This document shows, one piece after another, positions 3,460 to 45,478 of a stretch of DNA of 64,000 nucleotides. The notes beneath the pieces were generated by a model. That model ran no database searches. It had not been told where the DNA came from and saw nothing but the letters and a program-made list of their open reading frames with translations. How positions within the stretch are numbered: position 1 is the first letter of the stretch; every line of letters starts with the position of its first letter. The position numbers were made by a program, and so were the translations under genes. Origin of the DNA: a virus; the IMG/VR virus record IMGVR_UViG_3300033144_003744, positions 22,904-86,903 of that record; one strand, given 5' to 3'.

Positions 3460-4035
3460 ATGAAAACAAAATCATTTACATTATTTAGTTGTGTAAAAAA
3501 TAATAATTATGTAAGTGTTGTTATTTCAATTAAAGAAAATGGGACATTTGCTAGTAAAAATTCAATTAAATTTACAAATTATAAGGGTAAAAAAGAATAT
3601 GATAAACAATATAGATTAAATAATGCACACAAAAGAAAACAATATTATAATAATAATAGAAAAATAATATTAAATAATAAAATAAAATATTATAAAATTA
3701 ATAAAGAAAAAATACTAAATAATGCTAAAAAATACTATATAAATAATAAAGAAAAAATACTTGAAAGGGCAAAACAATATTATAAAAGTACTCCAAATAA
3801 ACATAAATTGTGGGCAAGAAGAAAAAATGCAAAACGTAAAGGATGGGGTATAAATCCAATAAATGAACCATTTGAAAATTGTCATTTTCATCATTTACAT
3901 ATAAATGGAGATCATAGTATAGGCATTTATATTCCAATGGATTTACATAAAGGTATATATCATAGTTATAAAAATGAAGAGAGTATGGAAAAGATTAATA
4001 AAATAGCAATGGATTGGTATGATTTAAATGAGTAA
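3460..4035 (+). CDS. His-Me finger (HNH-like) homing endonuclease
   Basis: K/Y-rich repeats then HFHHLHINGDHSIGIYIPMDLHKGIYH...INKIAMDW. Confidence 0.8.
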   Translation: MKTKSFTLFSCVKNNNYVSVVISIKENGTFASKNSIKFTNYKGKKEYDKQYRLNNAHKRKQYYNNNRKIILNNKIKYYKINKEKILNNAKKYYINNKEKILERAKQYYKSTPNKHKLWARRKNAKRKGWGINPINEPFENCHFHHLHINGDHSIGIYIPMDLHKGIYHSYKNEESMEKINKIAMDWYDLNE

Positions 4036-4300
4036 ATATAAACAACTAGTAGGAACATGTCCAGAATGTTCTGAAACAACGATGTTCGACGAGAGATCAG
4101 AAATAATATGTCAGGGCTGTGGACTGGTTATATTCCGACCAGGAAATGATCAGGTAGCTGTATATGTGGGTAACAATACCCCTTTAGTATATGAAAAAGA
4201 AGATTTTAAAATTCCGCATAATATGCATATCTCATCCGTAGCTGAGAGAATAGGATTAGCGATGATTGAACTAAAATATAATAGGGCTGATTTATTCTAA
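4028..4300 (+). CDS. TFIIB-type zinc ribbon protein
   Basis: CPECSETTMFDERSEIICQGCGLVI matches the TFB/TFIIB N-terminal ribbon pattern. Confidence 0.7.
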   Translation: MSKYKQLVGTCPECSETTMFDERSEIICQGCGLVIFRPGNDQVAVYVGNNTPLVYEKEDFKIPHNMHISSVAERIGLAMIELKYNRADLF

Positions 4301-4497
4301 TCAACCCACTCGTATCCCATTATTTTATCTGTAAATTTTAATAATAAACAAAACTCATATTGGTATACTAGAAAATTATCATATATTTCTAAATGTTCTA
4401 TTTTATTATCTTCTAATATTATACACCCAATAGGAATATCATCTATTACAATCTCTTCTCTTTTTCTCTCTATTATTTTAGTATCCATTATTTGCAC
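4297..4497 (-). CDS. hypothetical protein
   Basis: ORF overlapping the LAGLIDADG-like gene, last gene of the leftward unit. Confidence 0.5.
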   Translation of the reverse strand: MQIMDTKIIERKREEIVIDDIPIGCIILEDNKIEHLEIYDNFLVYQYEFCLLLKFTDKIMGYEWVD

Positions 4498-4885
4498 ACT
4501 TCATATCATTCTTAATTTTCTTTATTTTATTTATACCCTCAATATGATGATGCTGTTCACATGATATTTCTTCTACAATTCTTTCAAATTGTTTAAATTG
4601 AAATTTTCTACTTCCAGAACAGAACCCATTATAATTTGTAATAAATTCATTAAATCTTAATATATTATTGAGTCCATTAATAATCAATTTATTATCCTTT
4701 ACTTTAGATTTTATATCTAGACCTTGTAAGGTCTTAACAATATCAGATATTAATTCTTCTTCTTTTGATACTAGAATGAAACCAATTCCGACTGCATGGC
4801 CAGAACCGTATTTTTCATTCTTAGTAATATTTACTTGAAAGGAACCTGCTATTTCTATAAGTCCCAATAGCCTAATCGGTTCCAT
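4478..4885 (-). CDS. single-motif LAGLIDADG-like protein, probably catalytically degenerate
   Basis: LLGLIEIAGSFQVNI motif; C-terminal HHHIEGINKIKKIKNDM. Confidence 0.65.
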   Translation of the reverse strand: MEPIRLLGLIEIAGSFQVNITKNEKYGSGHAVGIGFILVSKEEELISDIVKTLQGLDIKSKVKDNKLIINGLNNILRFNEFITNYNGFCSGSRKFQFKQFERIVEEISCEQHHHIEGINKIKKIKNDMKCANNGY

Positions 4886-5468
4886 AGTACTTCTCCATTA
4901 TCAAGTTCTGCATATTTTCTGGACTATTAAGAAAATCATTACTATCTTGTACCTCATCCCACAAAGAATCTGTACCATTTTCTGGTTTAACAGATTCTAC
5001 TTTCATTTGTTCCTTTGGAACTATAATATTATCATACTTATCTAGAGAATCAATTACATTAATACTAGCATTGATCCTACAGCCACAAGGTGTTGTTACC
5101 CTAGCATTACTATCTGTGTACTGACCATCACATATTAGAAGGCAGTAGTCTCTGTTGTTAAGTAATGTATTCCTATCCGGTCCAGAAAATGTCCTACATC
5201 CATTTGGATGTGAATGTATTAGGCAATTAAATTTTAATGGTATTACTTCGTTAAAACGTACTTGAACTGAAGTGTTTTCCTGATCTGGTATGTATAAATC
5301 TACTAATTCGTTATCTTCAACAATGCCATAAATTGCTATCTCAATTCCGTGTCGTAACCCATAACGATAAACATCAAAGATTTCTTTATCTAATTCTTCT
5401 GGTATAAATAATTCATACTCTTGATGTGGGCAGTTATCATGTATGTTTTCTTCTAATTTCCAAGTCAT
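4872..5468 (-). CDS. JAB/MPN+ (JAMM) metallopeptidase
   Basis: E(IAIYG)...IHSHPNGCRTFSGPD = E..HxH-x7-S-x2-D. Confidence 0.88.
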   Translation of the reverse strand: MTWKLEENIHDNCPHQEYELFIPEELDKEIFDVYRYGLRHGIEIAIYGIVEDNELVDLYIPDQENTSVQVRFNEVIPLKFNCLIHSHPNGCRTFSGPDRNTLLNNRDYCLLICDGQYTDSNARVTTPCGCRINASINVIDSLDKYDNIIVPKEQMKVESVKPENGTDSLWDEVQDSNDFLNSPENMQNLIMEKYYGTD

Positions 5469-6058
5469 TATTTTATCCTCCTGATATCAAATGAAACACT
5501 TACTTTTTCTTCTGTTCCTGATGTAACTAAACCCATAGCGTGTGCAGCTACCATTGTTACTGTGGGAGCACATATTCCAGTGTATGAACTTACATCACTG
5601 ATGTTCCAGGTTGTAGATTTGGGAATCTTATTTGTAATACTATATCTTGTCTCATTAGCCCCAAGTGTCCAGATTGGCTTCTTATCAGCATGTTGCTGTA
5701 TAGGTACTTTCATGGGATAATCTATACAATTCATTATTATTCCATTCATCTGAAACACATCATCTGGGTCTTCTATAAATGGATGTTCTATAACTTTCAA
5801 TGATCTAAACCTTCTCAATGCTTCTGAACATAATTTAGTCTTCTCTTCTCCTTCTGACCATGCAGGATATGGTAGACGATTCCTATTGTGGTACTCTAAG
5901 GTGTCTCTATCATAAATATGAATCTTGGGTACACCTAAAAGAGCAGCATTATATGCAACCCAGGTTCCTACTCCACCAACTCCCAGTATGTGAATCTCTT
6001 CTGGAATAAAAAGATTCATTGATTCTTGACGATTATACACTCCAAGTTTTTCGCTCAT
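5468..6058 (-). CDS. ThiF/MoeB-family E1-like adenylating enzyme
   Basis: YNRQ, ILGVGGVG, IYDRDTLEYHNRNRL, conserved K, NCID; no Zn-binding CxxC pairs; start moved to MSEK. Confidence 0.88.
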   Translation of the reverse strand: MSEKLGVYNRQESMNLFIPEEIHILGVGGVGTWVAYNAALLGVPKIHIYDRDTLEYHNRNRLPYPAWSEGEEKTKLCSEALRRFRSLKVIEHPFIEDPDDVFQMNGIIMNCIDYPMKVPIQQHADKKPIWTLGANETRYSITNKIPKSTTWNISDVSSYTGICAPTVTMVAAHAMGLVTSGTEEKVSVSFDIRRIK

Positions 6059-6716
6059 GTGACACACCTCTCTCTTCTTGTGATTTGATTATTTTTCGTA
6101 CTTGATTCTGTAATGTTCTGTATGGATATTGTCTATGATACGGTGAATCTAAATTTGCAATACTTACATGTTGTTTTATCCTAGACACCATAAACTCATC
6201 CACTTTATCTATGTTTAAATTACCAGTACATAATGATCCACAATCAGTACCATCTTGATGAATGTAATTATGAAGTTCCCCATAATATCTAACTGCATTA
6301 CCAGATTCTTTATCAACAGTTATTTTTATAAGACCATGTACATATATTTTTTTAAGATCATCTGGAATAGAATACTTTGTTCCATAACGAACTATAGTTT
6401 TTATTTGTTCATAAATATAAACACTATACTCAATATATCCTTCTGTGATAATATATGGTATTGTTGAATCTTCCATGTTTACAATATGTTCACTGGAGTT
6501 TTTTATATTGTTTAGTTCATATTTCTTTTCATTAATTTTATTATCTAACTTATTAATTTCACTTCCTTGATTCTGCAAAAATACATTAATGGTTCTATTT
6601 AAGTTAGATATATCAGCTAATTCTGTTCTAAATCCATCAATAAAATTAATAAATTTACTCCTTCTATCTTCAATAGAATTCATAAAATTTACAATATCAG
6701 TATCTATTCCATTCAT
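6033..6716 (-). CDS. coiled coil plus E2/UBC-like domain protein
   Basis: HNYIHQDGTDCGSLCTG resembles the E2 HPN..G.(I/L)C motif; downstream ANLDSPY resembles E2 PN.xSP; lies between Ubl and E1. Confidence 0.62.
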   Translation of the reverse strand: MNGIDTDIVNFMNSIEDRRSKFINFIDGFRTELADISNLNRTINVFLQNQGSEINKLDNKINEKKYELNNIKNSSEHIVNMEDSTIPYIITEGYIEYSVYIYEQIKTIVRYGTKYSIPDDLKKIYVHGLIKITVDKESGNAVRYYGELHNYIHQDGTDCGSLCTGNLNIDKVDEFMVSRIKQHVSIANLDSPYHRQYPYRTLQNQVRKIIKSQEERGVSHERKTWSV

Positions 6717-6750
6717 AATCTATCCTCCCGTTAAAAAATATATTGGGTGA

Positions 6751-6978
6751 TTAAACCCAACTAGGCTTCTCTGATGTTTCAATTACAATTTCATACCAAT
6801 CTGTACCAAGATCTCTAGCTTCATCTTTATCTAATTCGTCCCCATCTATATATACATCAAAACTATTAATACAATTAGCCTTTGCTATATCATATATTGT
6901 TTCATATGCTGTCTTGTCATCAAAATCTGTTCCCGTTATAATTCCATTTACTGTTACTTTCTTAAAATCTATTTCCAT
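6751..6978 (-). CDS. ubiquitin-like (beta-grasp) small protein
   Basis: 75 aa; VTVNG..helix (IYDIAKAN)..FDVYIDGDEL..EIVIETSEKPS pattern; first gene of the E2-E1-JAB operon. Confidence 0.65.
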   Translation of the reverse strand: MEIDFKKVTVNGIITGTDFDDKTAYETIYDIAKANCINSFDVYIDGDELDKDEARDLGTDWYEIVIETSEKPSWV

Positions 6979-7014
6979 TTACTTATGCTCCTTTAATTAG
7001 GGATAATTCCCAAG

Positions 7015-7053
7015 GGTAGGCATGGAGTTGCACCATGCTAACTCTACTCTACC
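7015..7053 (-). ncRNA. tRNA-like minihelix (acceptor plus T-arm) in the 5' leader of the Ubl operon
   Basis: GGUAG-N10-GCAUGG-UGCAACU-CCAUGC-CUACC; TTAAATA box at about 7070-7076 places it at the transcript start. Confidence 0.6.
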
Positions 7054-7088
7054 TATATGCGACTGATTATATTTAAGTCTTGGGTTAA

Positions 7089-7463
7089 TTATCCAACTAC
7101 TTCATGACTAACAGATTCACCATTAACTAAAACTTCAACCTTTGGTACATCTGTCATGTCTAATACACTAGCATATCTTGTTTCCCAGAAAATTATGGTA
7201 CTATTTATAAAATGTTGATTATCACTTTCAATAATCAAAACATCTCCATCATATGTTGACCATCTGTTTGTGGCTTTATACCTTTTCTGAAAGTGGGTTT
7301 CAATTTTATTACCATATCCATCTGTCCAAGAATTATTATACCAATCTGTAAATCCATGTCTTGTTCTTATTTCCTTAAAACCATTCTTGTTCTTATGATA
7401 TAAATTTTGAGGTATCATTACTAACAATTTATGTGTTATTTCTGTGTCTATTTCTAAAATCAT
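7089..7463 (-). CDS. hypothetical protein
   Basis: 124 aa ORF, GGAG RBS. Confidence 0.55.
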   Translation of the reverse strand: MILEIDTEITHKLLVMIPQNLYHKNKNGFKEIRTRHGFTDWYNNSWTDGYGNKIETHFQKRYKATNRWSTYDGDVLIIESDNQHFINSTIIFWETRYASVLDMTDVPKVEVLVNGESVSHEVVG

Positions 7464-7763: not shown

Positions 7764-8294
7764 TTATTCTATTTTATTCCCTTTCTCTTGATTACAATGT
7801 ACACACATTGTTTGATAGTTGGACATTATATCCTTACCACCTTTACTCTTTGGGATTATGTGGTCTTTTGTCATCAGAACCTCTTTACCATCTTTAAGTG
7901 CATATAAATTAAAATGTGGTTTATCACTACCCGTAGATTCTATTGTAAAATATTGACCTTCAATGCCGCATTTAACACATACATGACTTCTAAAGAATAA
8001 TTTTAAATTATCTCTATTCATATTTATTGTATGTCCATTGAAATCTACTCTACATTCACCACACATGACTTTATCTAATACTTCATTTAAGGGGTAAACT
8101 CCAATTCTACCCATGGGTTCATCCATTCTTCCAACAGATTTAAAACCCATGTTAAATCCACGGATAAACATATCTTTATCCTTTACTCTTGGTATTTGAC
8201 CATAAGCTTTAATATATCCTTTCTCAAATTCTTTTAGAGCTTTAGTTCTTTTCTTCTTCTGTATGGTTCTAATATGTCCGCTACTTCTTTTCAT
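7764..8294 (-). CDS. HNH endonuclease
   Basis: CVKCG...MTKDHIIPKSKGGKDIMSNYQTMCVHCNQEKG. Confidence 0.88.
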   Translation of the reverse strand: MKRSSGHIRTIQKKKRTKALKEFEKGYIKAYGQIPRVKDKDMFIRGFNMGFKSVGRMDEPMGRIGVYPLNEVLDKVMCGECRVDFNGHTINMNRDNLKLFFRSHVCVKCGIEGQYFTIESTGSDKPHFNLYALKDGKEVLMTKDHIIPKSKGGKDIMSNYQTMCVHCNQEKGNKIE

Positions 8295-14348: not shown

Positions 14349-14561
14349 TTATTCATCTCCATATGTTTTTATTAAGTCTCTCATATAATGATCTGCAAAT
14401 TCTGTAGCTTTGTTTATAGATTTACACTTAATATCTATTGTCTGTTCCCCTATTATTCTTACTGTATATACTGGTCCATTAGAATATTTAATTCTTGCCT
14501 TTATGAATCCATTTAAATATTCTTTGTGGTATCCGAATTTTCCCTTTATCCATTTAGACAT
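14349..14561 (-). CDS. hypothetical protein
   Basis: 70 aa ORF, GAGG RBS. Confidence 0.55.
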   Translation of the reverse strand: MSKWIKGKFGYHKEYLNGFIKARIKYSNGPVYTVRIIGEQTIDIKCKSINKATEFADHYMRDLIKTYGDE

Positions 14562-14953
14562 TTTTAAAACCTCACTCTAAATCTTTTTTTATGACAATTG
14601 ACACACCTATAACGACCATCATATCCGAGAACAAAATCTATTTCTCGCCCTCTTTTATCACATTCATGACATCTCATATTTTTCTCCTCAATTTATCTAC
14701 CTTACGTTCTACCCACTCTTCATATTCTCTACGTTCATATTCGTCATAGCGTGATTTTTTGTCATTCTCAGATTCCATTACTATACCTCTAATTACTCAA
14801 ATGCTGTGCTGTCCTTGCATCAGTTCCCCATTTATATATCTGATTACAATGAATTCTTTCACTACAAACAGTACAATAGTATCTATTTTTATCTCTGCAA
14901 TTATCAGAGTTTATTTCATGTATCATAAATTCTACATCATTCATAATATCACC

Positions 14954-15148
14954 TTATTGTTTCATAACCATATTCTGTTCTATAAAATTTAACATTATTC
15001 TTAATTTTTTTATACCTTCTGGATATATTCTTATTTCAGTTTCTACATCTTCAAGAGAAAAGGTTAAAACTGACACATCTAATTCTCCCATCTCTTCAAA
15101 TGTAACTTTTGCATCGCAATCTTCATCCAAGTATTCTATTATGTTCAT
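14954..15148 (-). CDS. hypothetical protein
   Basis: 64 aa ORF, GGAG RBS. Confidence 0.55.
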   Translation of the reverse strand: MNIIEYLDEDCDAKVTFEEMGELDVSVLTFSLEDVETEIRIYPEGIKKLRIMLNFIEQNMVMKQ

Positions 15149-15500
15149 TGTTAATCATCTCCTTTTATCAACAACATCATCTTTATATTGAAAATCCCAC
15201 ATCAGATTTTTTAATACTTTGAGATGTACATACGCCATTTTTATCAAAATATTGTTTTATTCTATTACATCCCATTTTATCATTCCATTCACAATCTTTG
15301 TTTAAACATTGTAACATATTTATTCCTCCATAACTTCAACTAAAAAACTGGGACTAATTGTCCACTGTCCACTTGTTTTTACTTTCCTATGCCACAATTC
15401 ATAAAGCCCTATCAGTTTACCTTTAGTAAATCTTTTAATATTCATTAATTTATATTCGTTTCCATCTGGGAATGTCTCGATTGTTCCTATGTTCATATAA

Positions 15501-15686
15501 TCACTTTAGTTTTATATCTCCCGTATATTCCTGTAACCAATCTAAAACCACTTTAAGGGTTGTATCAGTTATTTCATTAATTTCTACATGGTCGATATTT
15601 ATATTTAATTGTGATACTCCATGTCTAATATCACTTTGTAACATACCTAATATATTATTAACTGTAATTATCTGTGTAGTATCCAT
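15501..15686 (-). CDS. hypothetical protein
   Basis: 61 aa ORF abutting the DUF262 gene. Confidence 0.55.
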   Translation of the reverse strand: MDTTQIITVNNILGMLQSDIRHGVSQLNINIDHVEINEITDTTLKVVLDWLQEYTGDIKLK

Positions 15687-16199
15687 TTATCCCACCTCAT
15701 CTAACATCTTTCTAACTCTATCAAGCTCATTATTAGTATGTACAGTGCCACCGGTATTCATTTCTAGATACCAGGTTAGTACTTCTTTTTTAGTTTTGAG
15801 ATTATTAATATGTACCTTAAGAGTAATATGCATTAGTCTAAGTCTATCTTCATACTCTGATTTATAATATCCAAATACTTTTAATTCATTATTCGTAAAC
15901 TTTAGACATGAAGTGATTCTTTGTAGACCGTCAACACATACAAATTCACCAGTAAATTCTACCATCCATCCAGGCATATTAAAATATACATCTCTTCCAG
16001 ATCTCCCACCTTTTAATAAATATTCTACATAAGCTATTTGTTGCTCTTCTGTCCATACATGTCCCCTTTGAAAATCAGGATTTAATTGAAGGTTATGGTT
16101 TTCTTTGTGGTCATCTACCCAAGTTGATAAATAATCCAATCCTATATCTACATCATAAGGAGAACTTTTTGTAAATTGTGGTATATCTATAAATTTCAT
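15687..16199 (-). CDS. stand-alone DUF262 (ParB-like, GmrSD N-terminal) domain protein
   Basis: PDFQRGHVW and VDGLQR motifs. Confidence 0.85.
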   Translation of the reverse strand: MKFIDIPQFTKSSPYDVDIGLDYLSTWVDDHKENHNLQLNPDFQRGHVWTEEQQIAYVEYLLKGGRSGRDVYFNMPGWMVEFTGEFVCVDGLQRITSCLKFTNNELKVFGYYKSEYEDRLRLMHITLKVHINNLKTKKEVLTWYLEMNTGGTVHTNNELDRVRKMLDEVG

Positions 16200-16212
16200 A
16201 TTAAATCTCCAT

Positions 16213-16467
16213 TTAACTCATTGGATATGTGGGAAGAGTTTTATCAGTTCTTTCTATGTAATCGAAATTAATATTATCGAAGCCTACCCTGAAATATTTT
16301 TGTCCATCATAGAACAAAATATATGCCCCATATTGAGGTTTAGTTATTCCTAAATCTTCATTACACCATTGGCCATAATTGATTTGACCGATTAAATGAG
16401 GTTTTGTTATGTCTGTGATATAATCGTATACTAGTAATTCATTTTTATTCATAATTATTTCCTCCAT
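16213..16467 (-). CDS. hypothetical protein
   Basis: 84 aa ORF. Confidence 0.5.
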   Translation of the reverse strand: MEEIIMNKNELLVYDYITDITKPHLIGQINYGQWCNEDLGITKPQYGAYILFYDGQKYFRVGFDNINFDYIERTDKTLPTYPMS

Positions 16468-16633
16468 TTAACATAAATTCCTCAAATACTTTATCCTCTA
16501 ATCTCTTCAATTCTAATTTACATTTACTACATAAATCATATTCTCTCATTTCGTGCTTTACTGTTATAAATAGTGTAAGTTTTGTATTTAACTTTTCACT
16601 ATATCCACATTTATCACATATTCTTTTCTTCAT
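16445..16633 (-). CDS. small Zn-finger protein
   Basis: CDKCG...YDLCSKC. Confidence 0.6.
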   Translation of the reverse strand: MKKRICDKCGYSEKLNTKLTLFITVKHEMREYDLCSKCKLELKRLEDKVFEEFMLNGGNNYE

Positions 16634-16739
16634 ATTTATTTCTCCTTTATATATTGTTTTATTGTTATAAATAATTAACCTATATTAAAATATTAATGGT
16701 GTTATTTATATACTTATTAATACCATATAGTATATTATC

Positions 16740-16820
16740 ATGACAGCAAGAACGATTAAATTAGATGACGAATTGAATAAAGCTGCTTTTGAATGGCTAA
16801 AGAATAATAAAGATTGCTAA
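16740..16820 (+). pseudogene. 26-codon RHH/HNH fusion remnant
   Basis: MTARTIKLDDEL plus NKAAFEWL; promoter resembles the one at 11143-11161. Confidence 0.5.
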
Positions 16821-17337
16821 AAAGCAACCCTTATATACTTAAGGCAACAATATATTATATTGCGAAGCCTTAGTTGTAATCTGCCATAGTCGCAAAGATA
16901 TCATTTTTCTATAATTTCAATTACGTTATGAAGGATCGCTATTAATATTGTTTTATAAAATATACAACATTCTTTTGTCTCTTCATCATATGAAAGTTTA
17001 TCACCATTGATAAACCCAACACGTTCACCGTCTTTGTACACATGATAACCATGTGTGTAACCCTTTTTAATTGTTATCATTTTAATCTACTCCTTCTGGT
17101 TTACTACTATGACAATATAAATCTTGAAAACTTACTTCTAATTTAATTTCATCACATTGACATATACCATCAATATTATTTTTACATTCTTCATCACATT
17201 TTACTATTGTCATTTTAATTCACTTCATTAAATCCATCATACATAATAGCATCATAATACATATCACATTCACACCTTAAAAAACATTGTGAACATGGGG
17301 ATAGGTCGCAGTCGTTACATTTTTCTGAAGCTTTCAT

Positions 17338-30171: not shown

Positions 30172-31413
30172 ATGAATTTATTAAAAAAATTACCAGACTC
30201 ATATATAGTAGGTGGAGCAGTAAGAGATACTATCATGGGTAGAAATCCAAAAGATATTGATATAGTAACTTCAATGCTTCCAGAGGATGTATTAAAGAAT
30301 TTTGACTCTCATCCATTGGGTCAGAAATTTGGTACAGTTGTAGTAAGAGACGATATCGGTGAAGTAGAAGTCACTACAATGCGTAAAGATTTGACAGGTG
30401 GTAGACATCCAGTAGTTGAGTTTACTGATAAAATTAGAGAAGATTTATCCAGAAGAGATTTTAGAATGAATGCAATGGCTATGAATGAATATGGTAGAAT
30501 TATTGATCCATTTAAGGGTCAGCAGGATATTATAAACAAACGTATTTCTAGTGTTGAAGATCCTTTAATCACTGTACACCCAATACACGGGGATCCACTG
30601 AGAGTACTTAGAGCAATTAGATTTTCTATTATTTTAGATTTTGATATTGAACAAGAATTACAAGTAGCAATAATGGATTCCGATCTTTCTACTTTATCTG
30701 GAGAAAGAATATACTCTGAACTCAAGCAGATGTTTAGTGAGCCTGAGGAAGCCATGAGAGCTTTATATTTCTACAATGTATTGTCCAAGGTACTACCGGA
30801 GGTAGATGATTTATCATGGTGTGTACAGAGTGTTCAGTGGCACCCTGAGGGAGATGCATTAGAGCACACCATTCTTGTAATGGAAAGAGTAAAGGAACAT
30901 GGTCCATTAGCTGTAATGGCCGCTATGTTACATGATATAGGTAAACCTGTAACCAGGGAAGGAATGACCTATCATGGCCATGCAAAAGCTGGAGTAGAAA
31001 TTGCAGAATCTATTATGAGAAGATTGGGTAGACCTAAAATTGAAGTTGAAGCTGTTAAATTTGTAGTAGAAAATCATATGAAAATTAAAGAAATAGAAAA
31101 TATGAAAGTATCTAAATGTAGAAAATTATATGATAGTCCACATTTTGATTTGCTTATGTTGATTGCCAGGGCTGATAATGCAGATAAACATAATGATTCT
31201 ATGTTTGAATTTATTGAACAAGATAATTTAGTTAAAGAAATTAATATTGAACCTTTGCTTGATGGATATGATCTAATAGATTTAGGTCTAAATGGTTCTG
31301 ATATTGGTAATGTTCAAAAAATATTAAAAGAATTACAATTAGAAAAAATTATTAGAACTAAAACTGAAGCTATTAGTTATGTAAATATATTTAAATATTT
31401 AGGTGGTGAATAA
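30172..31413 (+). CDS. cca: class II CCA-adding/poly(A) polymerase-family nucleotidyltransferase with HD domain
   Basis: VGGAVRD..DID, RRDF, DPLRVLRAIRF, HPEGDA..HT, LHDIGKP, HA..G, HM. Confidence 0.9.
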   Translation: MNLLKKLPDSYIVGGAVRDTIMGRNPKDIDIVTSMLPEDVLKNFDSHPLGQKFGTVVVRDDIGEVEVTTMRKDLTGGRHPVVEFTDKIREDLSRRDFRMNAMAMNEYGRIIDPFKGQQDIINKRISSVEDPLITVHPIHGDPLRVLRAIRFSIILDFDIEQELQVAIMDSDLSTLSGERIYSELKQMFSEPEEAMRALYFYNVLSKVLPEVDDLSWCVQSVQWHPEGDALEHTILVMERVKEHGPLAVMAAMLHDIGKPVTREGMTYHGHAKAGVEIAESIMRRLGRPKIEVEAVKFVVENHMKIKEIENMKVSKCRKLYDSPHFDLLMLIARADNADKHNDSMFEFIEQDNLVKEINIEPLLDGYDLIDLGLNGSDIGNVQKILKELQLEKIIRTKTEAISYVNIFKYLGGE

Positions 31414-41080: not shown

Positions 41081-42970
41081 ATGAAATTTACAATAATAAC
41101 GTTTCTGCTTATGCTTATGATGTGTAGCATAGCAGCCGGATTACCCTCTACTTATGATGGTAGAGAATTAGGATATACGACAGATGTTAAAAATCAAGGA
41201 AATTGTGGTTGTTGTAATTCATTCACAGTAATAGCAATGTTAGAGACTGCGATACTACGCAACCATGGCGCAACATATGACCTATCAGAAGAGCATGCCA
41301 AAGAGTGCTCTTATCAAGCAAGAACAAGCTCAGCAGGTGGATGCAATGGTGGCACAGACCGGATGATCATTAACCTACTAACACAGAAAGGGGCTGTGCT
41401 TGAATCAGATGAAAAATATTCTCCACAGGATAACAGATGTGATCTACGTGATGAGCCAGTTATAAGAGTCACAGATTGGGCGATTCTCTCAAAAGACAAC
41501 CCCGCATCTATCAATATCATAAAACAAAACATAATGGATCATGGGTCAGTGTATTCAGTTATAAACCAAAATTGTTTATCAAAATCATACGATGGAAAAA
41601 GTGTAATAAAGACAAGATCGAATCGCTGGAATGGGCATTCGGTTCTTATTGTTGGATGGGATGATTCAAAGAATGCATGGATTGTAAAAAACTCCTGGGG
41701 TACAGACTGGGGAGATGAAGGATATGGGTATGTAGGTTATGGGATCGCAGGGATCGGCACATGGTCAAGTGTAATCACAGGGTACGAGTTAGTAGATCCA
41801 ATATCAAGGACATTGTACCATGATGAAGGCGGTTGGACTAAGGATATGGGTTTTGTCTATAATCGTGCTTATGGCCGAATGAAGGTTGAGTATAATGTTG
41901 GATTAAGATTAATAACAGACATTGAATTTTGGACGACTGGACCGGCTGAAAATGTTGACTTGTATATCTATGATGATTATTTCGGTGACTACAGTAGGTG
42001 TGGGAACTTACTTGCTAAAGTTCAAGACTTGAAATTTGATCACGCAGGATACCATTCAATAGAATTAAAAGAACCTATTAGATCAAATACCGGTAAAGCT
42101 GTTATAACTTCTCATTTCATTAATGCACCCGGTGACGCTCGGTATCATCCGTTAGCTATCGATTCAGACGGGCCGTTTAGTACAAAAACATGGATGAAAC
42201 AAAATTTAGGTGATCGTTGGTTCTACCCAGGAGAATGGGCTGATAGAACACCCCATGCATACACAAGAATGGGTGACTCTACACTCCGGCTAACAGTTGA
42301 CAACGGTGGGTACTCGTTCAATAGGATAAAAATAGATGCAAAAGGAAGTACAACCATATCTGTGAAAGATACCATTCAATTTTCTGCCACAAACTGCGGT
42401 CCTGAAGAATGGAAAGTAAGTAATACGATGAAAGGAGAAATCACCCCTGGCGGATTATTTACCGCTAAAAAAGAAGGTACAGTTCTTGTCACAGTGATAT
42501 CATGTGGGGTAATTAGCAACCCGATAAAGGTTGTGATCGGTAAAGTCTCAAGAGAGGAAAAAAAGACTGAAAAAGACACCAAAAAAACATATGTAGGAGA
42601 TCCAGGTGAAAAATACAAAACAAGATATATATATTACTACAACTCCTATCAAAAATACACTGAAGAATATAATATGTTTAAAGCTTCCGAAAAAGTATAT
42701 CGGGATAGTTTGAACAGGGAAGAGATGGAAGCCAAATTAAAGGCATATCAAGAAAAGAACCCGGATATGAATGTTCCAAGTTATGATGAGATCGCTGAGG
42801 TAATGGTTGCAGGTGATAAGAGAAAAGCACAGACTGCAAAAGATAAAGCAGATGCAGCCTATCAGAACTATATTAAATACAAACAAAAGTATAATAATTG
42901 TAATAGAGATGTAGATGTACAAGAAAAAGACAAACGACCAGATAAGCGAGACAGATCCAAGGTGAAATAG
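41081..42970 (+). CDS. secreted papain-like (C1A) cysteine peptidase with lectin-like and Ig-like domains
   Basis: signal peptide; QGNCGCCNSF, GHSVLIVGW, KNSWG; AGYHSIEL lectin-like region; ITPGGLFTA Ig-like region. Confidence 0.88.
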   Translation: MKFTIITFLLMLMMCSIAAGLPSTYDGRELGYTTDVKNQGNCGCCNSFTVIAMLETAILRNHGATYDLSEEHAKECSYQARTSSAGGCNGGTDRMIINLLTQKGAVLESDEKYSPQDNRCDLRDEPVIRVTDWAILSKDNPASINIIKQNIMDHGSVYSVINQNCLSKSYDGKSVIKTRSNRWNGHSVLIVGWDDSKNAWIVKNSWGTDWGDEGYGYVGYGIAGIGTWSSVITGYELVDPISRTLYHDEGGWTKDMGFVYNRAYGRMKVEYNVGLRLITDIEFWTTGPAENVDLYIYDDYFGDYSRCGNLLAKVQDLKFDHAGYHSIELKEPIRSNTGKAVITSHFINAPGDARYHPLAIDSDGPFSTKTWMKQNLGDRWFYPGEWADRTPHAYTRMGDSTLRLTVDNGGYSFNRIKIDAKGSTTISVKDTIQFSATNCGPEEWKVSNTMKGEITPGGLFTAKKEGTVLVTVISCGVISNPIKVVIGKVSREEKKTEKDTKKTYVGDPGEKYKTRYIYYYNSYQKYTEEYNMFKASEKVYRDSLNREEMEAKLKAYQEKNPDMNVPSYDEIAEVMVAGDKRKAQTAKDKADAAYQNYIKYKQKYNNCNRDVDVQEKDKRPDKRDRSKVK

Positions 42971-43337: not shown

Positions 43338-43799
43338 ATGGGAAATAGCACATACATTGCACCAGCAGTCCAGGGTACTGAAACACTCATGAGTACTGAT
43401 CTGAACTCACTTGCAGATGATACGGTTAATGTGGGTGCAGTACTCCCGGACAATACATCTAACAGGTTTTTCTACGCTGAGTTTGAGCTTTATCTGGCAT
43501 CTGTAGATTTATCAGCACAGAACAATCCGGGGGTAGAATTATACATGGTACCGAGCTACGACGGTACGAACTACGCAGATGTAGGTACAGATGCAAGTGC
43601 TACAGTCTACCCACCCACTCAGTATCTTGTGGCTGTACTTGGTGTTGCAGAGACCAGCGCAGTACACCGGGCAGTATCACCACATGTGATGATTGATCCT
43701 TTGAAATATACTCCAGTTGTCATAAATAAGACAGGTGCAGCGTTAGCAGGAACAGGGAATGTTCTTAAGAGCAAATACTATACTGTGACCACAGCATGA
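43338..43799 (+). CDS. putative virion protein (jelly-roll-like)
   Basis: 153 aa, SYDGTNY motif. Confidence 0.5.
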   Translation: MGNSTYIAPAVQGTETLMSTDLNSLADDTVNVGAVLPDNTSNRFFYAEFELYLASVDLSAQNNPGVELYMVPSYDGTNYADVGTDASATVYPPTQYLVAVLGVAETSAVHRAVSPHVMIDPLKYTPVVINKTGAALAGTGNVLKSKYYTVTTA

Positions 43800-45478
43800 T
43801 AACCCCACAACAACTCCGGAACCCACAGGTTAAGCCTAAGTGGCAGTTACCCGTGGGTGTCATGGAATCGGTAGTTGCCTTCAATTGCCGTAAGTATGGC
43901 ATGCCACGGCCAGTGTTAGCCATGCCTCTGTGGGAGGGTGCGGGAAATCGTGCGCTTGATTTGAGTGGACATGGAAATCATGGGGCACTAAATGGGCCAG
44001 ACTGGGTGGCTGATGGGTTGGATTTTAATAGTAGTAATAGTGATTATGTAAATTGTGGGGACAATGATAGCCAAATCATTACTGACGAAATTACTTTTGT
44101 AAGCTATTTAAATCATAGTGTGAGTGCCAATCATGGATTAATTTCAAAAAAATCAGCCAGTGAATGGGATACAAAAGGATATTCTATACATATAGATAAT
44201 TCAAATCATGTTTTTGTCAGGCTTAATGAAGTATATTCAATTTCATCAGATACCGTACCACCCACGACAAAAAGATGTGTCGCTGGTACATGGAAAAAAG
44301 GAGGCACGATTGATCTTTTTATTGATGGGGTTGAAGTATCATATACAAATCATAATACCCTTTCAGATGATATTGTAGATTCAACCGATAATTTAAAAAT
44401 CGGAGTGTATTATAATGTCAGATATTTCGATGGTATTATTTATAATACACTAATATTCAACACTGCCCTCTCCGCAGCACAAGTAAAGTTCCTCTACGAA
44501 AACCCATACTTCATGTATGAAATCCCAGAAGAACTATACGGCTATGTATCAGCAGTAGGCGATACAGCAACAAACCTATTACACGGTAAAATAATTATAA
44601 AAGATTCATCCATCATACTTGTAGACGGTCTTGTAAAAGTCAAAGATATAAGCACAGACCTATTCGACGGCGAACTAAAAGTTATTGAAAAGGTAACCAG
44701 TCTTGCAGATGGAAAACTCCAAGTGAAAGATAGTGCAACATCACTTGCAGACGGATTAATTCAAATAAATGATGAGGAAACTAACTTATTAGATGGAAAG
44801 ATAATATTATCTAATATTTCAACAATTCTTATAGATGGTAAACTTCGAATAAAAGATGTAACCACTAACTTATCTGATGGGTTAATAAAAATTAAAGATA
44901 GTATAATAAATATAATAGATGGTAAAATTATAGTTGAAGTAATTGGTAGCACTAGTATACTTGCTGATGGTAAATTAAAAATTAAAGATGTAACCACTAA
45001 CTTATCTGATGGTAAACTAAAGATAATAGAAAGGGTAACTTCACTTATTGATGGAAAGATTATATTAAAAGATGTAACAACTGGAATAGCTGATGGTAAA
45101 GTTATAATAAAGAATACTACAATAAAAGTAGTGGATGGGTTAATTAATATAAAGAATAGTATTACACCACTTGTAGATGGTAAAATAATAATAGGAAATA
45201 TAGGAACTAATTTAGTTGATGGTTCTATTAAAATAAAAAACTTTACTACTAATTTACTTGATGGTAAAACCATTATTAAATCCATTGCAACTATACTTGT
45301 AGATGGTAAACTTAAGATAGGTAATTTTGTAACGAATCTATTAGATGGGAAGATAATAATAGAAAGTGCACAAGTTTACGAAGATATAAATTTAACATCA
45401 ACATTTGATAAAACAATAAGTATGACTTCTGAATTTGATAAAACAATAGATATAACATCGGGATTTGATTTCGTATGA
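43796..45478 (+). CDS. LamG/ConA-like domain fibre protein with about 19 14-aa repeats
   Basis: DLSGHGNHG, LFIDG, FDGII..IFNTALS; TxLxDGKxxIKx repeats. Confidence 0.8.
   Translation: MITPQQLRNPQVKPKWQLPVGVMESVVAFNCRKYGMPRPVLAMPLWEGAGNRALDLSGHGNHGALNGPDWVADGLDFNSSNSDYVNCGDNDSQIITDEITFVSYLNHSVSANHGLISKKSASEWDTKGYSIHIDNSNHVFVRLNEVYSISSDTVPPTTKRCVAGTWKKGGTIDLFIDGVEVSYTNHNTLSDDIVDSTDNLKIGVYYNVRYFDGIIYNTLIFNTALSAAQVKFLYENPYFMYEIPEELYGYVSAVGDTATNLLHGKIIIKDSSIILVDGLVKVKDISTDLFDGELKVIEKVTSLADGKLQVKDSATSLADGLIQINDEETNLLDGKIILSNISTILIDGKLRIKDVTTNLSDGLIKIKDSIINIIDGKIIVEVIGSTSILADGKLKIKDVTTNLSDGKLKIIERVTSLIDGKIILKDVTTGIADGKVIIKNTTIKVVDGLINIKNSITPLVDGKIIIGNIGTNLVDGSIKIKNFTTNLLDGKTIIKSIATILVDGKLKIGNFVTNLLDGKIIIESAQVYEDINLTSTFDKTISMTSEFDKTIDITSGFDFV

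What the first reader, a model, noticed from the sequence alone, without database searches (positions are those of the whole stretch)
4872..6978. Complete Ubl-E2-E1-JAB conjugation operon in an apparent archaeal virus
Seen: four co-oriented, closely spaced or overlapping genes behind one promoter. They encode a 75-aa beta-grasp-like protein, a coiled-coil protein with an E2-like H..G..LC motif and NLDSP tail, a ThiF/E1 adenylase, and a JAB peptidase with an intact HSH-x7-S-x2-D motif. Known: this gene set defines prokaryotic ubiquitin-like conjugation, including the bacterial Bil antiviral system, while archaeal SAMP conjugation uses no E2. No sulfur-transfer genes are nearby. Inference: the virus carries its own protein-tagging cycle, perhaps to mark host proteins for the proteasome or to reverse host Ubl-based defence. 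The coiled coil may supply substrate specificity in place of an E3. I know of no characterised example in an archaeal virus.
Basis: partly seen in the sequence, partly recalled or inferred. Interest (0 to 1): 0.9.

Follow-up and report, generated by a model that had tools for sequence, protein, structure and literature searches.

The report
Virus-borne ubiquitin-like tagging gene set
A tailed virus from an uncultured, probably archaeal, host carries four adjacent genes that look like a stripped-down kit for attaching and removing a small ubiquitin-like tag, but two of the four parts are identified only weakly and the tag lacks the usual glycine end.

Summary
The four minus-strand genes exist as described. 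They lie in an 86,903-bp IMG/VR tailed-virus record with 114-bp terminal repeats.

How well each part is identified:
- **E1:** secure. ThiF, Pfam E 3.5e-12, a single 196-aa domain.
- **JAB peptidase:** has the intact motif H-x-H-x7-S-x2-D, found once in an open frame in the genome. Its Pfam score is below the cut-off.
- **75-aa protein:** resembles ThiS only through a low-confidence Atlas model (TM 0.53-0.59). It ends ...SWV with no glycine.

The E2-like gene overlaps the E1 gene here and in the one outside locus I could read, which shows no JAB. The family is tiny: 5 clusters among 1.84 billion representatives.

The host is probably archaeal, but the signals are mixed.

Verdict: it works like Bil but is not a member. 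This scan has already noted many virus-borne kits of this kind on other DNA. My nine literature searches found only E1 homologues reported in an archaeal virus.

The parts
6751..6978 (-). 75-aa candidate ubiquitin-like (beta-grasp) protein. Its tail reads ...SEKPSWV and there is no Gly in the last 17 residues.
   Evidence: ORF. The ESM Atlas's own model (pLDDT 0.58) aligns to 8 listed clusters, 5 of them named ThiS/MoaD/thiazole synthase, at TM 0.50-0.59. There is no Pfam, PHROG, PADLOC or NCBIfam hit. The ThiS profile finds nothing in the whole genome.
6033..6716 (-). 227-aa protein: an N-terminal long helix or coiled coil (residues 4-75) followed by a C-terminal E2/RWD-like domain (about 79-215) with invariant H153 and C163, an ANLDS motif and W225.
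5468..6058 (-). 196-aa single-domain ThiF/MoeB-type E1-like adenylyltransferase.
   Evidence: PF00899 E 3.5e-12, 46.4 bits against a cut-off of 28.1, and E 2.4e-13 in the genome search. NCBIfam short ThiF PRK08644 E 4e-12 over residues 4-181. PDB hits: TcdA 3.1e-5, NEDD8 E1 UBA3 7.3e-5, UBA5 1.3e-4. 22 PADLOC Cap2 'E1-E2' models match, best 2.4e-6. Invariant residues are listed in A2.
4872..5468 (-). 198-aa JAB/MPN+ (JAMM) metallopeptidase candidate, with E43 and the motif H85-x-H87-x7-S95-x2-D98.
   Evidence: Prok-JAB PF14464 E 0.014, 15.7 bits against a cut-off of 25. It is the only hit in the genome, E 4.7e-4. It holds the only open-frame motif match in the genome. No PDB sequence hit to a JAB was found.
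6742..6761 (-). Terminator-like hairpin with a T-run that overlaps the Ubl stop codon. It could act as an attenuator that makes the tag more abundant than the enzymes.
   Evidence: Pattern scan: 5 terminator-like sites in the region against 1.3 expected. Function is inferred only.
7066..7095 (-). Sigma-70-like promoter pattern ahead of the Ubl gene, including the AT-rich stretch TTAAATATAAT.
   Evidence: 10 of 12 matches, but such sites are not enriched in the region (28 found, 31.5 expected).
4284..4307 (-). Terminator-like hairpin after the downstream LAGLIDADG and 66-aa ORFs. It may mark the end of the transcription unit.

Best explanation
This is a virus-owned, highly diverged protein-conjugation module that works like bacterial Bil operons.

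Proposed mechanism (all steps inferred):
- The 196-aa ThiF-type E1, probably a homodimer like MoeB/ThiF, adenylates the C-terminal carboxylate of the 75-aa beta-grasp protein.
- The acyl group passes to Cys163 of the E2-like domain of the 227-aa protein. His153 sits ten residues upstream, the spacing I recall for the HPN...Cys motif of E2 enzymes.
- The N-terminal coiled coil oligomerises the E2 or positions it on a target.
- The JAB peptidase removes the tag from targets, or trims it.
- Because the E1 has no cysteine domain, the transfer from adenylate to E2 is probably direct or uses a non-cysteine residue.

What is shown: the gene order, the E1 family, the JAMM motif, the invariant His and Cys, and the conserved E2-like/E1 gene overlap.

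What is not shown: every chemical step, the identity of the tag, and the targets (host or rival-virus proteins).
For: - The gene set and tight coupling are confirmed.
- The E1 family is secure.
- Residues I recall as typical of E1 adenylation sites are invariant in 4 of 4 family members: GxGGxG, D50, the N58-R59-N60-R61 run, K73 and D113.
- The JAMM motif is unique in the genome and adjacent to the E1.
- In the 227-aa family, H153, C163 and ANLDS are invariant in 7 of 7 rows.
- The Atlas feature search on residues 80-227 gave a 0.89 hit to a largely viral cluster with Prok-E2_D, and all ten best hits that carry a family share that family or clan.
- The Ubl candidate's Atlas model matches ThiS-like clusters.
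- The E2-like and E1 genes also overlap in the metagenome locus L004.
- In three further lineages the E2-like and E1 clusters list the same longest contig length: 5103, 6687 and 94461 bases. That they share a contig is inferred, not seen.
Against: - No E2, RWD, ThiS or ubiquitin profile matches any of the proteins.
- Foldseek found nothing at E <= 0.001 in PDB or BFVD.
- Only 1 of 5 AF2 models exceeded pLDDT 70, and the His-Cys loop has pLDDT 63-65.
- The Ubl model is low-confidence, and the protein has no C-terminal glycine.
- The E1 lacks a conserved cysteine: C163 of the E1 is Ala in P0004.
- L004 shows no JAB directly after the E1 gene.
- I saw no homologue of the Ubl or of the JAB anywhere. 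The Ubl itself was never used as a query in a sequence database.
Confidence: 0.55

Rival explanations
1. The E1 activates a C-terminus for a different chemistry, as MccB or PaaA-type E1-like enzymes do in peptide natural-product pathways. The 75-aa protein, or the Trp-bearing tail of the 227-aa protein, would be a substrate that is modified rather than conjugated. The JAB would be a maturation protease.
For: - The tag has no terminal glycine.
- PaaA is among the PDB hits, E 0.0012.
- The three plasmid loci I inspected out of 18 E1 hits are ThiF genes next to transporters, with no E2.
- Both small tails carry a Trp, and W225 is invariant.
Against: - No transporter, immunity or export gene is nearby.
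- The best hits are equally to Ubl-activating E1s: UBA3, UBA5 and Cap2 models.
- This reading gives no role to the invariant His/Cys E2-like domain whose gene overlaps the E1 gene.
Confidence: 0.12
2. The E1-like enzyme is an RNA-modification or repair enzyme of the TcdA kind (tRNA ct6A dehydratase). It would belong to the virus's tRNA toolkit, and its neighbours would be unrelated to protein tagging.
For: - The best PDB hits are TcdA, E 3.1e-5, and NCBIfam TcdA scores E 1e-4.
- The genome carries a CCA-adding enzyme and PTH2.
Against: - The TcdA match covers only the nucleotide-binding half, residues 14-108.
- The whole-length best match is short ThiF.
- The gene overlap with the Cys-bearing protein is conserved.
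- A JAMM peptidase follows with a 1-nt overlap.
Confidence: 0.07
3. The 227-aa protein is not a catalytic E2. It could be an RWD/UEV-like adaptor or an unrelated Cys-His protein. In that case the module is an E2-less E1-JAB-Ubl system like archaeal SAMP/UbaA/JAMM, or like the Ubl-E1-JAB sets of mobile elements.
For: - No E2 profile matches.
- Archaeal SAMPylation needs no E2 (established knowledge, recalled).
Against: - Cys163 and His153 are invariant in 7 of 7 rows with E2-like spacing.
- The gene overlaps the E1 gene in both loci I could read.
- The UbaA model scores only E 0.042.
- The tag lacks the Gly-Gly end of SAMPs.
Confidence: 0.15
4. The four genes are a chance neighbourhood of unrelated small viral genes.
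For: - Two of the four identifications are weak.
- The promoter is not established.
Against: - The genes overlap or are tightly spaced.
- The E2-like/E1 overlap is conserved in a relative whose E1 is 65% identical.
- E1 next to JAB is the recurring prokaryotic Ubl theme (passages of PMC1779556).
Confidence: 0.04

Closest known systems
Bil systems (BilABCD, Types I and II; class 6d of Iyer et al. 2006), as described in PMC11601596 section 5, PMC1779556 passages and passages of bioRxiv 10.1101/2023.09.04.556158
   Same: Both have four separate genes for a small Ubl, an E2-like protein with a cysteine, a JAB/JAMM peptidase and an E1. Neither has an E3, and in Bil the E2 is thought to pick the target itself.
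   Different: - BilD is a multi-domain E1 (inactive plus active adenylation domains and a cysteine domain), whereas this one is a single 196-aa domain with no conserved cysteine.
- BilA ends in a conserved glycine, whereas this tag ends ...SWV.
- The E2-like protein here carries a 75-residue N-terminal helix and matches no Prok-E2 profile.
- Bil sits in bacterial genomes as an anti-phage defence, whereas this module is on a virus.
- PADLOC models hit only the E1.
Type II CBASS Cap2/Cap3 (E2-E1 fusion plus JAB)
   Same: The E1 domain is the part of this locus that PADLOC recognises: 22 Cap2 'E1-E2' models, best E 2.4e-6. In both, a JAB is adjacent. Substrates with non-canonical C-termini are known for Cap2 (recalled).
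   Different: E2 and E1 are separate genes here. I did not search for a CD-NTase. The matches cover only the nucleotide-binding stretch of the E1, within residues 10-116.
Bub pathways (6E/DUF6527), read in PMC11601596 (abstract, sections 5 and 12)
   Same: Both are diverged E1/E2/Ubl sets in which the E1 lacks a catalytic cysteine. Bub shows that such systems can still conjugate.
   Different: - Bub uses Ser/Tyr oxyesters, fused proteins (Ubl-E2, JAB-E1 or E2-E1) and a DUF6527 serine protease.
- Here the E2-like protein keeps an invariant Cys, the genes are separate, and no Pfam family, DUF6527 included, matched any of the four proteins beyond ThiF, a weak Prok-JAB hit and chance-level hits.
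E1-like (ThiF) genes of Helarchaeota 'Nidhogg' viruses (Rambo et al., bioRxiv 10.1101/2021.07.29.454249; passages read)
   Same: Both are archaeal tailed-virus-like genomes from sediments that encode ThiF/E1 homologues alongside PolB, a ribonucleotide reductase, a DNA ligase and a methylase.
   Different: That paper reports E1 homologues only and proposes that they hijack the host's E2 and Ubl. Here the virus brings its own candidate E2, tag and JAB. I did not test whether the two viruses are related.
Archaeal SAMP/UbaA/JAMM sampylation
   Same: Both combine a small beta-grasp tag, a single-domain MoeB-type E1 and a JAMM peptidase, in a probable archaeal setting.
   Different: Sampylation has no E2 and its tag ends in Gly-Gly (recalled). 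The UbaA model scores E 0.042 against a cut-off of 450 bits.

Membership tests
ThiF/MoeB/E1 superfamily (PF00899) | Match to the family profile above its curated cut-off | tested here: met
   46.4 bits against a cut-off of 28.1, E 3.5e-12. 45.4 bits in the genome search.
ThiF/MoeB/E1 superfamily (PF00899) | Nucleotide-binding glycine loop and the conserved Asp/Arg/Lys/Asp adenylation residues (residue roles recalled) | tested here: met
   GVGGVG, D50, N58-R59-N60-R61, K73 and D113 are invariant in 4 of 4 family members. Their roles are assigned by recall, not by a tool.
JAB/MPN+ (JAMM) metallopeptidases | Catalytic motif E...H-x-H-x7-S-x2-D | tested here: met
   E43, H85, H87, S95 and D98 are present. 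This is the only open-frame match in the genome.
JAB/MPN+ (JAMM) metallopeptidases | Profile match above the Pfam cut-off (PF14464) | tested here: not met
   15.7-16.3 bits against a cut-off of 25, covering only about 31-33 positions around the motif.
UBC/E2 superfamily | Sequence-profile match (UQ_con or Prok-E2 A-E) | tested here: not met
   No such family appeared for any of the 6 members at E up to 10. Prok-E2_D finds nothing in the genome.
UBC/E2 superfamily | UBC fold: a beta-meander, then an active-site loop, then helices | tested here: inconclusive
UBC/E2 superfamily | Conserved catalytic Cys, with a His about ten residues upstream | tested here: met
   H153 and C163 are invariant in 7 of 7 rows. 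Their equivalence to the E2 HPN...Cys motif is by recall and by approximate co-linearity. No residue-level alignment was seen.
Ubiquitin-like beta-grasp (ThiS/MoaD/Ub) | Beta-grasp fold | tested here: inconclusive
   The Atlas model has pLDDT 0.58 and TM 0.50-0.59 to ThiS-type clusters. There is no ThiS profile match.
Ubiquitin-like beta-grasp (ThiS/MoaD/Ub) | C-terminal Gly or Gly-Gly, exposed or followed by a short overhang | tested here: not met
   The tail is ...ETSEKPSWV. The last Gly is 18 residues from the end.
Bil (BilABCD) | [quoted passage not shown] | tested here: not met
   The E1 is 196 aa with one adenylation domain. There is no invariant Cys in the crossover region.
Bil (BilABCD) | Four separate genes: Ubl, E2, JAB and E1 | tested here: inconclusive
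   The gene content fits if the two weak identifications hold.
Bil (BilABCD) | Anti-phage defence encoded by a bacterial genome | not testable with these tools
   The locus is on a virus record. Its function is untested.
Type II CBASS (Cap2/Cap3) | Fused E2-E1 protein next to a CD-NTase | tested here: not met
   E2-like and E1 are separate ORFs. The PADLOC hits are confined to the E1. I did not search the rest of the genome for a CD-NTase.
Bub (6E/DUF6527) | DUF6527 serine protease and fused Ubl-E2, JAB-E1 or E2-E1 proteins | tested here: not met
   The genes are separate, and no DUF6527 hit appeared among the four proteins.

The most novel reading that the evidence does not exclude
A virus of archaea runs its own minimal tagging cascade with unorthodox chemistry:
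- a tag whose C-terminus is not glycine (...SWV);
- a cysteine-less, single-domain E1 that hands the activated tag straight to a coiled-coil-tethered E2;
- Trp-bearing tails on both tag and E2 that act as a shared docking signal for the E1 or the JAB.

This would be a new branch of Ubl conjugation, used by the virus on host or rival-virus proteins.
Probability: 0.2. Interest if true: 0.75.

Novelty: new variant of a known kind. Interest (0 to 1): 0.55.

Why it matters
Characterised prokaryotic Ubl-conjugation operons (Bil, and type II CBASS with its relatives) are cellular defences against viruses (PMC11601596). A virus that carries its own kit reverses the roles. It suggests that protein tagging is also a viral weapon or assembly tool in prokaryotes, as it is for viruses of eukaryotes.

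If the host is archaeal, it bears on how ubiquitin-type cascades with an E2 spread among archaea.

This particular version is a minimal one: a 75-aa tag without glycine, a 196-aa E1 and a 150-aa E2-like domain on a coiled coil. That makes it a compact system for asking which features of E1-E2 chemistry are really necessary.

Two cautions apply. Two parts are weakly identified. And this scan has already flagged many virus-borne kits of this type on other DNA, so this locus is one more, unusually divergent, example rather than a first.

Tried and rejected
**Homologue searches**
- The 227-aa protein gave only 2 proteins by word search, 5 by full HMMER against 1.84 billion representatives, and 4 with the profile.
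- The E1 gave 4.
- Single-protein scans of IMG/VR with E2-like, E1, JAB, P0006 and the terminase found no relatives. The E1 alignment found none in IMG/VR or in genome contigs. P0010 found none in genome contigs.
- The metagenome scan gave one 1.5-kb locus, L004.
- The deposited-phage collection has no relative of the E2-like protein and only two TcdA-like hits for the E1.
- The plasmid E1 hits I inspected (3 of 18) were ThiF genes next to transporters, with no E2, so I dropped that route to E2 sequences.

**Structure**
- The single-sequence AF2 model was useless for the C-terminal domain, pLDDT below 50 from residue 73.
- BFVD gave nothing.

**Sequencing runs:** none was listed, and no RNA holder was listed.

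**Leader hairpin** at 6979-7092: the fold has z -1.56, with 15 of 200 shuffles folding as well. It is not distinctive.

**Literature:** nine searches found no paper describing a virus-encoded Ubl-E2-E1-JAB set. The jumbo-phage survey PMC7824862 has 2 occurrences of 'ubiquitin', neither about phage Ubl systems. Table S1 of PMC11601596, for example, lists 544 Bub operons and might include viral records.

**Rejected readings:** a sortase, caspase or papain-type Cys-His peptidase for the 227-aa protein. I rejected these on recalled His-Cys order and spacing only, not by a test.
Full report
**Setting**

The window is bases 22,904-86,903 of an 86,903-bp IMG/VR virus record. I measured a 114-bp direct terminal repeat. 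CheckV's completeness estimate is 62.

It is a tailed virus. It has a terminase large subunit (phrog_38, E 4.6e-58), a portal and a tail tube protein. The other arm holds an anaerobic ribonucleotide reductase, a family B polymerase, a C5 methylase, an ERCC4-HhH nuclease and an ATP-dependent ligase. GC content is about 25-42% across the window, and about 28-32% around the locus.

**The observation**

One search confirms four co-oriented minus-strand ORFs at the stated coordinates. From the sequence:
- Each has a GGAGG-like ribosome-binding site.
- The second and third overlap by 26 nt.
- The third and fourth overlap by 1 nt.
- The first is separated from the second by 34 nt. That gap holds a terminator-like hairpin and T-run overlapping the stop codon.

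A sigma-70-like pattern precedes the first gene, but such patterns are not enriched here: 28 were found against 31.5 expected. A LAGLIDADG endonuclease gene overlaps the 3' end of the fourth gene.

**The E1**

This part is secure.
- Pfam ThiF scores 46.4 bits against a cut-off of 28.1.
- NCBIfam's short ThiF model covers residues 4-181.
- PDB sequence hits include TcdA, the NEDD8 E1 UBA3, UBA5, PaaA and SAE2 (26 hits at E <= 0.01).
- 22 PADLOC Cap2 models hit its nucleotide-binding part.

It is a single 196-aa domain. Four family members share the glycine loop and the acidic and basic residues that I recall as the adenylation site. No cysteine in the crossover-loop region is invariant: the Cys at position 163 is Ala in P0004. 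It therefore lacks the cysteine domain that defines Bil E1s (PMC11601596 section 5).

**The JAB**

The Pfam Prok-JAB match is weak: 15.7 bits against a cut-off of 25, E 0.014. It is the only match in the genome, E 4.7e-4. The full JAMM motif is present, preceded by a Glu. It is the only open-frame instance in the six-frame translation of the genome, against 0.38 expected. No homologue was found in IMG/VR, and there is no PDB sequence hit. I accept it as a JAB on the strength of motif and position.

**The 227-aa protein**

Its family is very small. Full HMMER against 1.84 billion representatives found 5 proteins at E <= 0.001, itself included. Word searches added one relative at 87% identity.

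In seven aligned rows the invariant residues cluster in the C-terminal half. They include I152-H153, G156, L162-C163, G165, A187-N188-L189-D190-S191, Y199-R200 and W225.

No profile library or PDB sequence search recognises the domain. The only hits are coiled-coil proteins matching the N-terminal part.

An AF2 model built with six sequences has mean pLDDT 73.3. Only one of five models passed 70. It shows:
- a long helix, residues 4-75;
- a beta-meander, residues 88-149;
- a loop carrying H153 and C163, pLDDT 63-65;
- two helices.

Structure searches with this model gave the following.
- Foldseek found nothing significant, although E2 enzymes appear at E 1.3-1.8.
- Counting all 50 rows, 20 are E2 or RWD by title.

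An ESM-Atlas feature search on residues 80-227 gave unnamed, mostly viral clusters at 0.91-0.93. It also gave a 160-member cluster, 57% viral, in which 44% of members carry Prok-E2_D, at 0.89.

The His-to-Cys spacing of ten equals the HPN-to-Cys spacing that I recall for E2s. The ranges are roughly co-linear with that. I saw no residue-level alignment.

**The 75-aa protein**

No profile matches it. The Atlas holds its own model (pLDDT 0.58). That model aligns at TM 0.50-0.59 to eight listed clusters, five of them named ThiS, MoaD or thiazole synthase. This is a lead, not proof. The tail reads ...SEKPSWV with no glycine in the last 17 residues, which fails a defining feature of known conjugated Ubls.

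The E2-like family also ends in a Trp-bearing tail. W225 is invariant and lies in a disordered stretch of the model. I have no tested explanation for this (note).

**Conservation of the arrangement**

The only outside DNA I could read is L004, a 1.5-kb metagenome contig. It encodes an E2-like protein whose gene overlaps that of an E1 by 23 nt. The E1 is 65% identical to this one. Two short ORFs follow that do not look like a JAB.

For three other lineages, the E2-like and E1 clusters list the same longest contig length: 5103, 6687 and 94,461 bases.

**Host**

Archaeal-leaning evidence:
- PTH2, E 2.1e-28;
- a 90-aa protein with a TFIIB zinc ribbon, E 2.3e-6 and 27.5 bits against a cut-off of 29;
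- a Hef/XPF-type ERCC4-HhH nuclease;
- a PolB whose best deposited relatives are haloarchaeal tailed viruses, about 25% identity.

Bacterial-leaning evidence:
- a class II CCA-adding enzyme with an HD domain;
- a terminase nearest to Bacteroides phages, 26% identity, E 9e-33, with archaeal viruses much further away.

I put an archaeal host at roughly 0.7.

**Comparison with what is known**

In gene content the module is closest to Bil: Ubl, E2, JAB and E1 as separate genes, with no E3. It fails two defining features that I tested, the multi-domain E1 and the glycine-ended tag, so it is not a Bil member.
- It is not Cap2/Cap3, because there is no fusion.
- It is not Bub, because there is no DUF6527, the genes are not fused, and the E2 keeps its cysteine. 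Bub does show that an E1 without a catalytic cysteine can still drive conjugation.
- It differs from archaeal sampylation by having an E2-like protein.

In print, the nearest viral case I found is three E1-like genes in Helarchaeota Nidhogg viruses, which are proposed to hijack host components (passages). Borg elements carry many JAMM 'de-SAMPylases' (passages). Nine literature searches found no description of a virus-encoded Ubl-E2-E1-JAB set.

Within this scan, many other agents have reported virus-borne kits of this type in phages, magroviruses and a methanogen virus. One look-up returned 86 findings in at least 73 genomes, another 241 findings in at least 203 genomes. None shares sequence words with this locus. 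These are unchecked notes, and I did not test them.

**Verdict**

The most likely reading (about 0.55) is a virus-owned, minimal, Bil-like conjugation module from a rare and very divergent lineage, in a probably archaeal virus. The E1 and the JAB are solid. The E2-like domain is probable. The tag is uncertain and non-canonical. Targets and purpose are unknown.

I class it as a new variant of a known kind, with interest 0.55.

Noticed in passing
window 4478-4885 (-): A LAGLIDADG homing-endonuclease ORF (PF00961, E 6.3e-6) starts 14 nt inside the 3' end of the JAB gene. An HNH endonuclease gene lies at 7764-8294, just upstream of the module.
   Followed up: no
window 4028-4300 (+): A 90-aa protein with a TFIIB-type zinc ribbon (PF08271, E 2.3e-6, 27.5 bits against a cut-off of 29) and no cyclin repeats. 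It is an archaeal or eukaryotic-type transcription motif on a virus.
   Followed up: partly
L002:8416-8772 (-) and L002:7032-7664 (-): An archaeal or eukaryotic-type peptidyl-tRNA hydrolase PTH2 (E 2.1e-28), and a Hef/XPF-like ERCC4 plus HhH nuclease (Pfam E 3.9e-14; NCBIfam Hef E 7.7e-16).
   Followed up: partly
window 30172-31413 (+): A class II (recalled: bacterial or eukaryotic type) CCA-adding enzyme with an HD domain (phrog_2244, E 4.1e-70). No tRNA gene was found in the window.
   Followed up: no
L002:14476-17214 (-): Family B polymerase in two ORFs. The exonuclease part is at 16564-17214 and the polymerase part at 14476-16101, with a 158-aa ORF (16091-16567) between them. I did not scan that ORF.
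   Followed up: no
window 41081-42970 (+) and 43796-45478 (+): A papain-family C1 peptidase fused to a lectin-like domain (E 2.6e-33), and a Laminin_G_3 protein, both among the structural genes.
   Followed up: no
window 6979-7092 (-): The leader ahead of the Ubl gene folds into a hairpin, but not better than shuffles: z -1.56, with 15 of 200 shuffles folding as well.
   Followed up: partly
window 6033-6047 and 6751-6765 (-): Both the tag candidate (...SWV) and the E2-like protein (...TWSV) end in Trp-bearing tails. The E2-like Trp is invariant in 7 of 7 rows and lies in a low-confidence, probably disordered stretch.
   Followed up: partly
whole record G000: The record has direct terminal repeats (114 bp by my count), yet CheckV's completeness estimate is 62.
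   Followed up: no
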